This document shows positions 5,237 through 43,639 of a stretch of DNA of 64,000 nucleotides, piece by piece. Positions within the stretch are counted from its first letter, which is position 1; each line of letters starts with the position of its first letter. A program made the translations under genes and the position numbers. The stretch covers positions 2,356,001 through 2,420,000 of the forward strand of contig CM022671.1 of assembly GCA_012295275.1 (NCBI GenBank). Direction: 5' to 3'. The notes under the pieces were generated by a model, which saw nothing but the letters and a program-made list of their open reading frames with translations, was not told the origin of the DNA and did not search any database. The DNA comes from Chrysomallon squamiferum (taxonomy: Eukaryota > Animalia > Mollusca).

Positions 5237-7760
5237 TCATGAAAGTTCTGGAATAAAAACATCTTCTACAATAGGATGCAAATACATCTGGTTGTTGTTG
5301 TTGTTGTTGAAACATAACGGAATTTGCTCAGAGTTATTTGATGAAATGTCCGAGAAACTCTCTAACTGAGATTCATTAATTTGATCATAGTGATCAGTAA
5401 CCGTTGATGTGTTACCAGACAAAGAAACTGATTCAGGTGCTGAATTCGGTTCTTTATGTTGAGCGTTCTTCCATTTCCTGTAATAAAATAAATATTCATT
5501 TGCACGTATATACAGAGAGATAAATAGAGAGTGTGAGAAGAGAAAAGAAAATAATCCATATAGATAAAATAGCATTAGTATATGTGTGTATATATATATA
5601 TATACTCATTGATTAATTTAAGATTTTTAGTCTGAAGATACTTTATTTTCTCTCCTTTGTGCATTAACTAAATCTGGCATATCTAACACTAGCGTACTAA
5701 ACAAACAAACAAACAAATAAATAAATAATAAATAAATAAATAAATAAATAAATAAATAAATAAATAAATAAATATAAAAATAAATTAATTAATTAATGCA
5801 TAAGTAAATAAAATAAGCATATCATGAATAATAAATACACGATGCATATAAAGGAAATCCTTCATACATGCAAACACGCAGAGTACGAAATATGTATTCA
5901 TAAAATGCCGTATAGATGTCTCAGTGTAAATCTCAATTAAACTAACAAAAAATCGAGCGCACATATTATATTTATTACACAACTGCAGTATAATTTATAA
6001 CAACTTACTTGCGTATAACATAAGCAGCTAAAGGAACAATGATAAACAGACTGAATGCAATAATTAATTCAAATTTTGTCGCGTAACCTACAAATACAAA
6101 AAGAACCTACAAAGAAAAAGAAAAAAGAAAGAAAGAAAAGAAGAAGAAACAGAAAAAGAAAACCTACAAATTAATCACACGAAGTTCATGAGTGCTATAC
6201 ATCAGTATCATTTAACAAAACGAATAAACTTAAATATGGATAAAATATTTCTTACTAGAAATACATATAGTAAAATCCATAAAAGAAAATGAACGTATAT
6301 ATTAACAAAAATCTATGAAGAGGTTTTAATACTCATTGTAAAAAACAACAATTGTAACAAAAAAAATTTAAGATTGGTATTTTCATAGAATATTTTATTT
6401 GCATATTATCAATAGTATCTGTAACTTAACATATTATGCCATTATATATTTTACCTTCAGGTTTCGGAAACTTTTGCAGACAGCGACTGCCGGTCCATCC
6501 AGGATAGCAGCCATCAGGACACGTTCCATCATTTTCACAAATTTGTTTAATACAGTTTTTACTACACTTCTTGTTACATGTGTCACCATATCGTCCATCA
6601 ATGCATCCTTCGGAACATTTTGTTCCCATTTTGTTGCAAGTTCCATTTCGACATCCTAAACTGCATTTCTTCTCACATCGGTCTCCAAACCATCCTTTAA
6701 CACAACCATATAAACACTGCCCTGTCTTTGGGTTGCAGGAAGATCTGTTAATGTTATCGTTACAATTCTCTGAACAGCGATCTAGACAATAGTCACCAAA
6801 ATAGCCTTCTCTGCACACGTGACAAATTCCTGTTTGTTTTTGGCAGCCATATTGGTTGCAGTTGTTACACTCTAATTTACACTTGGGTCCGAACCAACCA
6901 GGATGACAGCCTTCAAGACACGTTCCATCATTTTCACAAAGCTCTTTAATACAGTTTTTACTGCACTTCTTTTCACATCGGTCTCCAAACCATCCTTTAA
7001 CACAACCATATAAACACTGCCCTGAATCTCGACTGCAGGAAGATTTGTTAATGTTATCAGAATTTAAAATACAATTCTCTGAACAGCGATCTGAACAGAT
7101 GTAACCAAAATACCCTTCTCTGCACTCGTGACAAATTCCTGATTGTTTCTCGCAACCATATTTGTTGCAATTGTTGCACTTGTGTTGACACTTGGGTCCG
7201 AACCAACCAGGACGACAGGAATCTATAAATAATGACCATGTGAATGTTTTCAGTGATAAACCTATTTTGATACTAGAAACGTTAATAATCCTCTATGTTA
7301 AAAGAAGTGAATTCTTATATTTGATACAGTTCACATTACAACACTTTTTCTAAATTGTAACAAATTATACAAATATATATGTTTCTTATATAATAGTCCA
7401 TGACTGAATAATAATTATGTAAAGTTACTTACTGGTGTTAGCTGATGGTGTTGTGGTTGTAGAATTAATACATTCGCCTTTAGCATCACATCTAGCACTA
7501 CAGTGGTGACAGGGAAATAAACAGTGAGTTCCAAAATAACCATCTTTGCACTGTCCAAAACAATTTCCAGTCTTGCGATCACATTTGAGACAGAGCTCAG
7601 GACATCTTCGTCTACAATAGCCACCGTACCATCCATCTTCACATCCACTTTGACAAACTGTGGAAGAATGCTGTTTATATTCGCTGGATACGTTACATTG
7701 AGGTTTCACTAAAGAATACACGGATGGTACAGTAAAGAGTAAGAGGAGAAGAACTCCCAT
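5237..7760 (-). CDS. R1: type I membrane multi-EGF receptor (MEGF10/CED-1/SCARF-like), ~471 aa if the stop-containing 41-nt exon is skipped
   Basis: Exons: 7760-7433 (signal [16 protein letters not shown] + EGF + Thr-rich); 7222-6455 (768 nt, fully open, seven C..GW/YFG..C repeats); 6087-6009 (TM LIIAFSLFIIVPLAAYVIRK); [5682-5642, contains TAA]; 5477-5237 (tail KWKNAQ..DHYDQI..QMYLHPIVEDVFIPELS*). All GT-AG, phases compatible. Confidence 0.8.
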
Positions 7761-9550
7761 GTTTTTACACCTTTTCTTTATCCTCCTGAAACAGCAAAGT
7801 ATCAAGAAATGAAAGATGTGTTCCGGTTATGGTTTTTAGTTCGTTAAATTATTTTTTTATTATTCTTTCATTCGTTCTTTCATTTTTAGTTTCGGAATTT
7901 TGTCGACTAATTACGTTTAATTTTAAACTTTATTTCTTTAATTTCAAATTCCATAACCTCCTAAGTGATTTTCACAATTTGTTCAAACTTTTTCAGTGAC
8001 CATAATCTCATGAAATGACATTAAATAATTAGATTGAATTATTAAAGTGTCACATGACATAATAATTTATATACATAAAATAATGTTGTAAAAACAAGGT
8101 AGTCATTGATGAGAATAATAAAACTATAACATAATATTAAATAAGGATAACTTGCGCCTTTGAAAGGTTATCATACATAGAGCAATATAGTAAAAACGGG
8201 GTTTATAATCACTACAACTTAGAAAAATCAAAGAAACGTTCTGTCAATAGGAGGCCTATTACCTCTTTCTGTTTCAACATAATCTTATTAAAGGGAGATT
8301 AACAGTGTTAAACACCGATACAACTTTACGAATAACTATTTGACTATATAATTCAGGATACAAATATTTTTTATATATTAATACAGTCTTAATTTATCAC
8401 TATTTAACTGATGTCCACAAAATCATTAAATCAATCTTGTTCATAGTTTCTATTTAAAATGACACAAAAAGTCATTCAAATTAATCCCGATTTTTAAAAC
8501 CCTTTCTTAGTATATGTATTCTATGGTGTCTACTTACATTCATTTCGTTTTGGTATTTTGTTAGCACGTTTTCTTGAAACAAACCACTTTATTACATTCC
8601 TTATTAGGCACTGTCATTCCGTTCGAATTACTTTAATACTTTACACTATTTTCTTTTTATAAAATAACCAGTTAGAATTGTTAAAAGTTCCAGTCTTCAA
8701 TAAATTCATTATTTTATATCTTTCAAACAAAACTAAGACGAAGTTTCGCCATTCCTCGAAGTAAACGTTTAGGTAGCTTGTTTATCTCTCTGTCAATGTA
8801 CATTACTAACAATAGATATATAAATAACTATAAATATTTCCTCTGCCAATGTATTGACTGGTGTGTAGACAGTGACCCAAAGGTTTAATTAACTTGCTCG
8901 TTTAAGTTTTATATCAGACACAAAAAATAAAGTCATAATTATGTAATATCATCTAACTTATATTGGGATGTATCAGTACTCTTGTGTCCATTTCTAAGTC
9001 ATAGCTTTACAAATTTGGCTTTATATATATGCATAGGCTTATGTAAGTGTATCTGTGTATGAATATGTGCATATTAAATAAAGCAACGGAGAATATATAA
9101 AAAATATATTAAAAAGAAAACAAAGGACAAGATAGCTATATTTACATACTAGCTGTACACTCACACACACACACACACACACACACACACACACACACAC
9201 ACACACAGTAGCGTATTTATTTTATCATCAAGTCATTAAACTGTAATGTATAATAAATTAGTATTTTAGTTTTAATATAAAAATTCTGCTGTAGTCAATG
9301 AAAATAATAATAACTAAATAATTTTAAAACGTAGTACAAACAGAGAACTTCGTTTACATACGACATTAAATGTTTTAACAGAACGTGACTATCGTAGGCT
9401 TGCTCTGCTTAGTCCGCTAACTGGTTGTTTTTTTCAGTCAGTCAGTTAAGAAGCCAAAGCTGACATTTTACTTGCGTGTATGTATCACGTACACTCCTTT
9501 AACGGAACACTTAACAATACCTCCTTTGTGTAAGTGTTGGCTACCGTTAG

Positions 9551-42800: not shown

Positions 42801-43639
42801 TCACTCAGCTATTTGCCATAGCTTCCCTCCCCTTGTGACAAACCGTGGTGTATCTTCTTTCCACATCGATCATAATAAATGAGCAGACAACACAGATGTC
42901 ATAAGAGGTTATGATAAAAACAATAGTACATATATATGCATTTGTGTCTAACTAAATATTTATATATCTTATTATCTCACTCTCTCTCTGACTGTCTGTT
43001 TAACATAATTGCCGTTTATATGCACAAATACAGCATAGAAAATGTATTAGATAATTTCAGATTAATTATTTATATCATCATTAAAAGAGATGGAAAAGAA
43101 ATATTTACCATTACTATTACATATTCCGCTCTGGCGATCGCACTGTTTGCATCTGCTACAACTAATATCACAGTGTTTTCCGTAATATCCCGGCATGCAG
43201 CGTAAACAGAACCCTTCACAATAGGAGCAGTGTTGTTGATGGTTTATACCTAATAATGAAAATAAAATAAAACAAACACACATCATTATATTTATGTATG
43301 TGAATTCGTGTCAGAGTTGATATAACATCAGTGCAATTAAATAAATAAACATAAAAAACATTAAATAAATATATGACAATAACAAGAAAGAAAATAATGA
43401 AGAAAGTAAGACGTAACTGTGTAAGATAATGTAATGTTATGTACGCAAAGCAGCAAAACGTAATGTAGTGTAACATACATACATACATACATACATATTT
43501 TAAAACACATCGATATGTACATACTATAATACCGACTGTAATTGTATGGAAATAACAAACATGATAAATCTTCGACTGCAGGCGTCTTCACTAGAATAGG
43601 TAAAGACATCTTAACTTGTTTCATTAAATGCATCTTCAT
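39803..43639 (-). CDS. R4: long type I multi-EGF receptor (MEGF10/CED-1/SCARF-like), ~566 aa, Tyr-motif tail
   Basis: Exons 43639-43525 (uncertain; atypical leader), 43249-43109, 42660-42052, 41633-41166 (EGF repeats, all phase 1), 40802-40715 (TM LIIALTTAVLFFIVLLAAYVIRK), 40446-40399 (SARFSVRTKETIEKI), 40034-39803 (..DHYDQI..QIYLHSIVEDVFIPEVS*). Open throughout. Confidence 0.82.
42741..42895 (+). mobile_element. tRNA-derived SINE-like fragment in an R4 intron (duplicate at 63850-64000)
   Basis: Pol III A-box-like TAGCTCAGTGG followed by a GC-richer body; no cloverleaf. Confidence 0.45.

What the first reader, a model, noticed from the sequence alone, without database searches (positions are those of the whole stretch)
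5237..43639. Mix-and-match receptor system: N-terminal and anchor/tail modules are swapped between paralogs
Seen: the B-type first exon is joined to an EGF stalk + TM + Tyr tail in R1, but to a Gly-rich TM + micro-exon tail in R2. The C-type N-terminal exons (QQ.CSYCE; W.YNC..C.G.CKLC) are joined to that same stalk/TM/Tyr tail in R4, but to a short hydrophobic end in R3. All ectodomain exon junctions are phase 1. Established: symmetric-phase exons permit shuffling, and paired signalling/non-signalling receptors are typical of immune clusters. Inference: a combinatorial, rapidly evolving recognition locus (innate immunity, phagocytosis or allorecognition).
Basis: partly seen in the sequence, partly recalled or inferred. 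Interest (0 to 1): 0.8.

Follow-up and report, generated by a model that had tools for sequence, protein, structure and literature searches.

The report
Snail EGF receptors with swapped halves
A tandem cluster in a snail genome holds four predicted cell-surface EGF-repeat receptor genes that share front and back halves in a chain, and one of them likely arose when a deletion fused the front of one gene to the back of a neighbour, a way of varying receptors already known from other animals' immune gene clusters.

Summary
The modules are real. Four open GT-AG models form a chain: R2 (B + Gly-rich TM + 30-nt micro-exon tail), R1 (B + EGF stalk/TM/Tyr tail), R4 (C + same stalk/TM/tail), R3 (C + short end). 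R1's 5' half matches R2 down to 7390 and its 3' half matches R4/R5 up to 7277, so the join lies in one 210-nt intron. RNA contigs show C-to-stalk, TM-to-tail and 5'UTR-to-B splices; 7433-7222 and 24742-21593 were not seen in RNA. Corrections: R4's signal exon is probably 44971-44911, not 43639; R3's end reads as a GPI signal; no ITIM, ITAM or NPxY; only 4 of 6 combinations occur and only R1 has a locatable join; positive selection is not shown. Nearest relatives are from Gigantopelta and Haliotis; nearest structure is SCARF1. Similar mixed EGF-receptor clusters are published for Biomphalaria (LG5R, SudRes1), and head/tail mixing for Botryllus fester and chicken BG. This scan already noted a similar EGF cluster elsewhere in this genome. 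Verdict: real, a new variant of a known kind; immune role inferred.

The parts
7433..7785 (-). R1 B exon (CDS from 7760): signal peptide, two EGF-like units, Thr-rich end; phase-1 donor
   Evidence: predicted fold closest to SCARF1
8539..8567 (-). 3' end of an R1-specific 5'UTR exon (GTAAGT donor); its start is not mapped
   Evidence: RNA contig X3 record 17 joins it to 7785; no other copy of 8483-8893 in the window
7223..7432 (-). R1 intron holding the fusion point: 43 nt B-type (7432-7390), 112 nt with no match in the window (7389-7278), 55 nt stalk-type (7277-7223)
   Evidence: covered by contigs of run X2
6455..7222 (-). R1 EGF stalk exon, 768 nt, 300 nt longer than R4's through an internal duplication
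   Evidence: Pfam EGF_laminin/EGF_TEN
6009..6087 (-). R1 transmembrane exon
   Evidence: spliced to the tail exon in an RNA contig of a close copy (joint 5476/6008)
5237..5477 (-). R1 cytoplasmic tail exon with two tyrosines (YDQI, YLHP), no ITIM/ITAM/NPxY
   Evidence: no homologue found
24742..25121 (-). R2 B exon (CDS from 25096)
   Evidence: 5' end joined to an exon at 27172+ in RNA contig X1 record 6
21443..21593 (-). R2 Ser-rich stalk plus Gly-rich transmembrane exon; single copy in the window
   Evidence: no competing phase-symmetric exon found in the 3.1-kb intron
20326..20355 (-). R2 predicted 30-nt juxtamembrane exon (poly-Arg stop-transfer)
   Evidence: predicted only
15798..19484 (-). 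Six predicted 30-nt phase-2 micro-exons (19484, 18695, 18275, 17309, 16888, 15827), each in a copy of a repeated intron unit; a seventh copy at 15306 has a 7-nt deletion
   Evidence: predicted only
14592..15121 (-). R2 predicted last exon(s): 15121-15091, completing an acidic dileucine motif (EMNPLL); alternative terminal exon 14646-14592
   Evidence: predicted only
32406..32466 (+). R3 signal-peptide exon, 61 nt, phase 1
32688..32834 (+). R3 C1 exon
33223..33666 (+). R3 C2 exon
33792..33871 (+). R3 last exon, predicted GPI-attachment signal
44911..44971 (-). R4 predicted signal-peptide exon, 61 nt, GTAAGT donor
43109..43249 (-). R4 C1 exon
42052..42660 (-). R4 C2 exon
   Evidence: C2-to-stalk splice in RNA contig X1 record 5
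39803..41633 (-). R4 stalk (41633-41166), TM (40802-40715) and tail (40034-39803) exons
60856..63766 (-). R5, a second C + stalk + TM + tail copy running off the window; frameshifts in stalk and tail
12315..13010 (+). Broken copy of R3 (signal and C1 exons deleted, stop in C2, last acceptor lost)
1..244 (-). B exon copy with a premature stop, running off the window
31740..31999 (-). 5'-truncated B exon, head to head with R3, 97.4% identical to the copy at 1-155
2520..2560 (+). Relic of the R3-type last exon

Best explanation
This is a tandem cluster of snail EGF-repeat surface-receptor genes, similar to class F scavenger receptors, in which R1 is likely a fusion made by a deletion between neighbouring copies and the products are predicted to be non-self or debris receptors with three kinds of anchor. 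Shown: a block of [B gene (-), C gene with short end (+), C-stalk-TM gene (-)] has been duplicated, leaving intact and broken copies; R1's promoter, 5'UTR and B exon descend from the R2 type and its stalk, TM, tail and 1.6 kb of 3' flank from the R4 type, joined inside one 210-nt phase-1 intron. Inferred: a deletion across the boundary of two adjacent blocks removed the signal/C1/C2 exons of one gene and the TM/tail exons of the next, and the shared phase kept the frame open; the B + Ser/Thr stalk + TM layout of R2 is the older one. Inferred function: the outer EGF units bind a surface ligand; R1/R4 hold it on a long stalk and signal through two tyrosines, R2 holds it close to the membrane and would be internalised through an acidic dileucine motif after a tail lengthened by micro-exon copies, and R3 would be GPI-anchored without a tail.
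For: Breakpoint. Block layout: B copies at 1-155 and 31845-31999 are 97.4% identical, each followed by an R3-type last exon and then a stalk/TM/tail gene. Not a collapse of R2 and R4: R1 differs from both (B 73.5% DNA in the mature part; stalk 92-93%; introns 79-89%). Run X2, which covers introns, has contigs across the R1-specific intron segment: one spans 7227-7379, one skips 7253-7322, five cover 7392. RNA contigs show C2-to-stalk, TM-to-tail, and separate 5'UTR exons for R1-type and R2-type B genes. Polarity: the two best non-window matches to B are Gigantopelta aegis proteins with no further EGF after B, one with Ser/Thr/Asn stalk, TM and short tail, and R1's B exon still ends in a Thr run. 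Family: SCARF1 is the only solved structure matching C2 by sequence (E 0.0028) and the top fold match of B (Foldseek E 2.1e-4; Z 7.4, rmsd 4.0, 71 aligned); relatives are named scavenger receptor F-like or MEGF-like in Haliotis and Mercenaria.
Against: No RNA contig shows 7433-7222, and 24742-21593, the micro-exons, the dileucine exon and the GPI exon were not tested against RNA. No single listed X2 contig spans B exon to stalk exon (8 of 182 pieces shown), and X2 may not be independent of the assembly. The 112-nt middle of the intron has no donor in the window, so the parents are not exactly R2 and R4 and the mechanism is not read directly. In 12 of the 20 best B matches further Cys-rich repeats follow B, so B + more EGF also exists in relatives, and the tree was unresolved. 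R2's 5'UTR donor reads AT in the window, so the RNA may come from another allele or copy. No ligand, tissue or challenge data. The B model is modest (pLDDT 71, pTM 0.46) and Z under 8 can be a common arrangement.
Confidence: 0.62

Rival explanations
1. Neutral by-product: an unstable tandem array throws off fusions and fragments; R1 is in frame only because every ectodomain intron is phase 1, and neither it nor the micro-exon tail has a selected role.
For: At least four broken copies in the window. Micro-exons (88% alike) are no more conserved than their flanks (93% and 88%). 0-fold v 4-fold site tests are not significant (p 0.40-1.0).
Against: R1 is open over 471 codons while its introns are 79-89% like R4's; stalk dN/dS is 0.38-0.46; six micro-exons have no indel while their flanks average 2-3 gap bases per pair; the R1-type intron is covered by several X2 contigs and an R1-type 5' end is spliced in RNA.
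Confidence: 0.17
2. A true combinatorial paired-receptor system: heads and tails are exchanged repeatedly to give activating, inhibitory and decoy partners for the same ligand.
For: Chain of shared modules; R4/R5 identity steps from 97% to 86-92% along the gene; one X3 contig carries a B-type head with a 3' part that does not fit R1's stalk; similar paired clusters were noted elsewhere in this genome (unchecked).
Against: Only 4 of 6 combinations; shared heads only 62% alike; no ITIM, ITAM or NPxY; R5 carries 28 inserted bases in 206 and may be consensus noise.
Confidence: 0.1
3. The same genes are adhesion, matrix or shell/skin-surface proteins with no immune role.
For: EGF/laminin-type repeats occur in many non-immune proteins; no lectin or known recognition domain was found; no expression data by tissue.
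Against: Copy turnover, fragments and mixed anchors match Biomphalaria receptor clusters linked to parasite resistance; SCARF1 is the best structural match.
Confidence: 0.08
4. R1's junction is a misassembly of separate genes.
For: Repeat-rich region; R5 looks noisy; no whole genome held and no long reads seen.
Against: R1 is identical to neither parent; canonical splice sites and open frame; X2 contigs cover the intron in overlapping steps.
Confidence: 0.03

Closest known systems
[quoted passage not shown]
   Same: Snail cluster of signal peptide + EGF-like + single TM genes with small tails, mixed domain layouts, many fragments, copy-number change; unequal crossover and exon shuffling are proposed there.
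   Different: No galactose-binding/fucolectin or phosphatase domain here; here a fusion point is mapped inside an intron, and a predicted GPI form and a micro-exon tail occur; no phenotype link; orthology not tested.
Human SCARF1/SREC-I (PMC11563577, abstract and outline; PDB 8HNA, 8HN0)
   Same: Type I membrane protein of curved EGF-like repeats; best sequence and fold match; B, C1 and stalk are basic (pI 8.2-8.6), as is the SCARF1 ligand site per the abstract.
   Different: Weak similarity (35-36% over about 70 residues); single gene rather than a shuffled cluster (recalled); tails unrelated; ligand unknown here.
Chicken BG genes (PMC4046983, passages and part 1 of 2 of section 8)
   Same: Works alike: tandem receptor array, hybrid genes by unequal crossover or deletion, 5' end bringing its own promoter, cytoplasmic tail built from many small exons.
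   Different: Ig-V domain and 21-nt coiled-coil exons; hybrids between homologous genes, whereas R1 joins two subfamilies about 30-35% alike.
Botryllus fester family (PMC12582321, section 9 whole plus passages)
   Same: Invertebrate receptors that mix and match ectodomains and intracellular parts by intergenic recombination in clusters.
   Different: Ig/Sushi domains, a known allorecognition role and ITIM/hemITAM co-receptors; none of these shown here.
Gigantopelta aegis XP_041379365.1 and XP_041350125.1; Haliotis scavenger receptor F-like proteins
   Same: Closest database relatives of B (46-50%) and C2 (36-43%); R2-like layout in XP_041379365.1. MEGF is listed among expanded immunity-related families in G. 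aegis (PMC7895826, section 8 read whole).
   Different: Uncharacterised, automatic names; none shares the TM or tail of R1/R4 or R2.

Membership tests
Biomphalaria LG5R-type scavenger class F-like receptors (subgroup 1A) | Signal peptide + EGF/Tie2-like ectodomain + one TM + small tail without known domain | tested here: met
   R1, R2, R4 models; Pfam EGF hits on stalk and C2, none on the tail; Tie2 among fold matches
Biomphalaria LG5R-type scavenger class F-like receptors (subgroup 1A) | Clustered with fragments and copy-number change | tested here: met
   Four intact models, R5 and three fragments in 64 kb; 182 X2 contigs on 2.8 kb
Biomphalaria LG5R-type scavenger class F-like receptors (subgroup 1A) | Orthology or synteny with LG5R/SudRes1 | not tested
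   No Biomphalaria sequence was compared
SudRes1 MEGF/GBD receptor phosphatases (subgroups 1B, 1C) | Galactose-binding/fucolectin domain and tandem PTP domains | tested here: not met
   No such Pfam hit on the nine R1-R4 exons scanned; tails are about 80 aa
Class F scavenger receptors (SCARF1/2) | SCARF1-like EGF repeat sequence and fold | tested here: met
   E 0.0028 for C2; Foldseek E 2.1e-4, Z 7.4 for the B model; weak
Class F scavenger receptors (SCARF1/2) | Binding of modified LDL, teichoic acid or apoptotic cells | not testable with these tools
   Needs a binding assay
MEGF10/MEGF11/Draper/CED-1 | N-terminal EMI domain (recalled) | tested here: not met
   No EMI hit on B, C1 or C2 at E <= 0.1
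MEGF10/MEGF11/Draper/CED-1 | NPxY and ITAM-type motifs in the tail (recalled) | tested here: not met
   Pattern search of all four models found none
Paired activating/inhibitory receptors | Near-identical ectodomains on opposed tails (recalled) | tested here: not met
   Shared heads 62% (B), 48% (C1), 62% (C2) identical
Paired activating/inhibitory receptors | ITIM in one partner, ITAM or charged TM residue in the other (recalled) | tested here: not met
   No ITIM or ITAM pattern; no Lys/Arg in the TM cores by inspection; YDQI is at most a half site
Nimrod/Eater | CCxGY motif before NIM repeats (recalled) | tested here: not met
   No CCxG[YWF] in any model
GPI-anchored protein (R3) | Signal peptide, small-residue omega site about 24 residues from the end, polar spacer, uncharged hydrophobic C-terminus | tested here: inconclusive
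   Met by hand rules (S-S-A at -24, last 15 residues mean hydropathy 1.61, no charge in the last 24) and the acceptor is shared with the relic at 2520; no GPI predictor run and a second acceptor at 33798 exists

The most novel reading that the evidence does not exclude
In a symbiont-bearing vent snail, the intron just before the stalk exon is a recurrent exchange point that puts new EGF heads, with their own promoters, on one conserved signalling base, while the same heads also exist as an endocytic form with an extensible micro-exon tail and as a GPI-anchored decoy, giving a three-anchor receptor repertoire that sorts symbionts from other bacteria.
Probability: 0.12. Interest if true: 0.72.

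Novelty: new variant of a known kind. Interest (0 to 1): 0.4.

Why it matters
Mollusc MEGF/SCARF-like clusters are now tied to parasite resistance in Biomphalaria, where shuffling is proposed but, in the sections I read, no join is mapped. This window gives a base-level example of a new receptor made from two distant subfamilies, with the parents next door, plus predicted GPI and micro-exon-tail forms. It offers a simple PCR-testable marker for how such clusters change and candidate receptors for host-bacterium recognition in a vent-type snail. It does not reveal a new mechanism.

Tried and rejected
No whole genome was held, so genome-wide exon trees were not possible. Word-index protein searches were nearly blind: tail 0 hits of 47 candidates, B 1 generic hit of 18, stalk 0 of 14; these blanks are weak evidence. 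The Atlas gave only generic mollusc EGF clusters (0.94 for C2 with low recognition, 0.85 for B). A 38-row tree of B-like units was unresolved (support 22/15 for B as one group) and is not used for polarity. Positive selection: Nei-Gojobori gave dN/dS 3.3 (C2, R3 v its broken copy) and 1.6 (R4 v R5), but 0-fold v 4-fold counts were not significant and the R3 pair's introns (83%) are more diverged than the exon (90%); not claimed. The frame from 43639 as R4's first exon was rejected (no signal core). The 39-nt intron after R2's TM and a 14-nt exon at 21404 were rejected in favour of a 30-nt exon at 20355 with canonical sites. R3's downstream acceptor (33798) was judged less likely because the two other copies lack that AG. 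The Cys-rich frame at 27525-27824 matches the modules only at E 0.001-0.007 and is left unassigned. RNA contigs do not cover the end of R1's B exon, so absence of that join is no evidence. Ten paper searches listed no paper on this cluster; two strict searches returned 0 papers; supplements were not read and could hold gene lists that include these genes. Our-findings look-ups near the locus, by words and by sequence were empty.
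Full report
Setting. The window is AT-rich animal DNA (GC 25-36% per 2 kb) with many microsatellites. No whole genome is held. EIF2B1 and GTF2H3 exons lie between R4 and R5 (Pfam IF-2B, Tfb4). The best relatives of the receptors are gastropod proteins, first Gigantopelta aegis, then Haliotis, so the source is very likely a gastropod; an earlier unchecked note on this genome suggests a vent snail, which fits but which I did not establish.

Gene models. All four translate open with GT-AG introns. 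R1 (-): B exon 7760-7433, stalk 7222-6455, TM 6087-6009, tail 5477-5237; 471 aa. R4 (-): signal exon 44971-44911, C1 43249-43109, C2 42660-42052, stalk 41633-41166, TM 40802-40715, tail 40034-39803; 532 aa. R3 (+): signal 32406-32466, C1 32688-32834, C2 33223-33666, last exon 33792-33871; 243 aa. R2 (-): B 25096-24742, Ser-rich stalk and Gly-rich TM 21593-21443, a 30-nt poly-Arg exon at 20355, six 30-nt exons between 19484 and 15798, and a last exon at 15121 (or 14646); 248 or 265 aa. The ATG at 43639 is probably not R4's start.

Module sharing. B of R1 and R2 is 62% identical, stalk of R1 and R4 81%, C2 of R3 and R4 62%, C1 48%; B, C and stalk are themselves distant versions of one EGF-like repeat (29-46% between types). 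The TM and tail of R1/R4, the TM of R2 and the end of R3 are unrelated. So two heads and three anchors give 4 of 6 possible pairs, in a chain R2-R1-R4-R3.

The R1 join. Self-comparison shows 3632-7277 homologous to the R4 and R5 regions, introns and 3' flank included, and 7390-9550 homologous to R2's B exon and upstream DNA. Inside the 210-nt intron, 43 nt are B-type, 55 nt stalk-type, and 112 nt match nothing in the window. R1 is identical to neither side (mature B 73.5% DNA to R2; stalk 92-93%, TM 91%, tail 96%, introns 79-89% to R4), so it is not a collapse of R2 and R4. R1's stalk has also gained 300 nt by internal duplication. In contrast R3 and R4 match only within C exons (67% DNA) with saturated dS: that split is old and has no locatable join.

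How it likely arose. The order B(-), short-ended C gene(+), stalk/TM/tail(-) occurs twice: [B at 1-244, relic last exon at 2520, R1's 3' half] and [B fragment at 31740-31999, R3, R4]; the two B pieces are 97.4% identical. To the right of R1's 3' half lies another B + broken R3 copy. A deletion across the boundary of two such blocks would give R1. This is inference; the unmatched 112 nt show that the actual parents were not exactly R2 and R4. For polarity, the two best of 156 non-window BLAST hits among 159 held proteins are Gigantopelta proteins with no EGF after B, one with stalk, TM and short tail like R2, and R1's B exon keeps a Thr run. Against this, 12 of the top 20 hits have further Cys-rich repeats after the match, and the tree was unresolved.

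Reads. One search listed 4 runs, 3 RNA and 1 of unrecorded kind; all are contigs, and shares of words were low (0.00-0.28). Laid on 5150-7950 at 85%: X1 6, X3 4, X4 7 contigs (all 17 listed) and X2 182 (8 listed). RNA shows the TM-to-tail splice (5476/6008); a contig with 44 letters of stalk joined at 7221 to a sequence matching the C2 end of R4 and R5 with 2 mismatches in 30, which confirms C + stalk; a contig joining R1's B acceptor (32 letters, no mismatch) to an exon ending at 8539 that only R1 has in the window; and a contig joining an R2-like B start to 27172+, although the window's donor there reads AT. No RNA contig reaches the end of R1's B exon. X2 covers introns, so it behaves as DNA; one contig spans 7227-7379, one skips 7253-7322 and five cover 7392, linking B donor, middle segment and stalk acceptor in overlapping steps and suggesting more than one B + stalk gene. 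X2 may not be independent of the assembly. R2's first join and tail were not tested against RNA; a scan found no competing symmetric exon in its 3.1-kb intron.

Tails. No ITIM, ITAM, NPxY or CCxGY pattern occurs. R1/R4 have two tyrosines 33-36 residues apart. R2's predicted tail is Ser/Thr/Glu-rich and ends in an acidic dileucine pattern, an endocytosis signal type (recalled) that depends on a predicted join. The six micro-exons sit in copies of an intron unit; they are 88% alike against 93% and 88% for flanks but have no indels. R3's end fits GPI-signal rules by hand, and its acceptor is shared with the relic at 2520.

Rates. Stalk dN/dS 0.38-0.46, B 0.53-0.68, C2 1.6 and 3.3 in two close pairs; the last two were not significant by degeneracy class. 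R4/R5 identity drops from 97% (C2 and flanks) to 86-92% (TM, tail), with R1 closer to R4 in the tail (13 v 6 sites), hinting at a second exchange, but R5 has 28 inserted bases in 206 and may be noisy.

Comparison. Human SCARF1 is the only solved structure matching C2 and the top fold match of the B model; its abstract reports binding of modified LDL through basic residues, competed by teichoic acid (PMC11563577). Biomphalaria LG5R holds clustered scavenger class F-like genes in five layouts, half of them fragments, and the authors invoke unequal crossover and exon shuffling (PMC13712769, sections 20, 32); SudRes1 has 10 MEGF genes among 23 (PMC12297450, passages). Botryllus fester genes mix ectodomains and tails (PMC12582321, section 9), and chicken BG genes combine hybrid genes with small-exon tails (PMC4046983). 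MEGF is listed as expanded in G. aegis (PMC7895826, section 8); PMC7736800 (passages) does not mention EGF. It works like these clusters; it is not a MEGF10/Draper, Nimrod, receptor phosphatase or classical paired-receptor member by the tests above.

Verdict. Observation confirmed with corrections; interpretation partly supported. One well-located fusion plus an older anchor change in a fast-turnover SCARF-like cluster. New variant of a known kind; interest 0.4.

Noticed in passing
window 46500-55800: EIF2B1 (-) and GTF2H3 (+) lie head to head inside the receptor cluster, between R4 and R5; the same pair is adjacent in human (recalled), so the arrangement may be ancient.
   Followed up: partly
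window 62264-62763: R5's stalk exon has many small insertions, some reading like a merge of the R1 and R4 variants; either decay or a consensus artefact.
   Followed up: partly
window 27161-27172: An RNA contig splices here to an R2-like B exon, but the window has AT where a GT donor is expected.
   Followed up: partly
window 27525-27824 (+): 100-codon frame with a Cys-rich stretch only faintly like the EGF modules; possible relic exon.
   Followed up: partly
window 30870-31020 (+): GC-richer promoter-like stretch ending in a good splice donor, upstream of the B fragment and R3; could be R3's non-coding first exon.
   Followed up: no
window 14153-14456 and 23499-23815: An 89%-identical 300-nt element in inverted orientation flanks most of R2; probably a small transposon.
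   Followed up: no
window 42720-42900 and 63820-64000: A roughly 180-nt element with a tRNA-like look in the C1-C2 intron of R4 and R5; possibly a SINE.
   Followed up: no
window 22000-23200 and 33961-34884: Two long minisatellites, one in R2's first intron and one just after R3.
   Followed up: no
P0009 and P0159 (Haliotis): Abalone relatives carry a tyrosine-containing 13-residue tandem repeat in the tail whose copy number differs between the two species; a parallel to R2's repeated tail.
   Followed up: no
window 7672-7786 v 7517-7671: Among B copies the 5'UTR/signal part is 91-93% identical but the mature part only 72-85%, a step inside the exon that suggests conversion or faster change of the mature domain.
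   Followed up: partly
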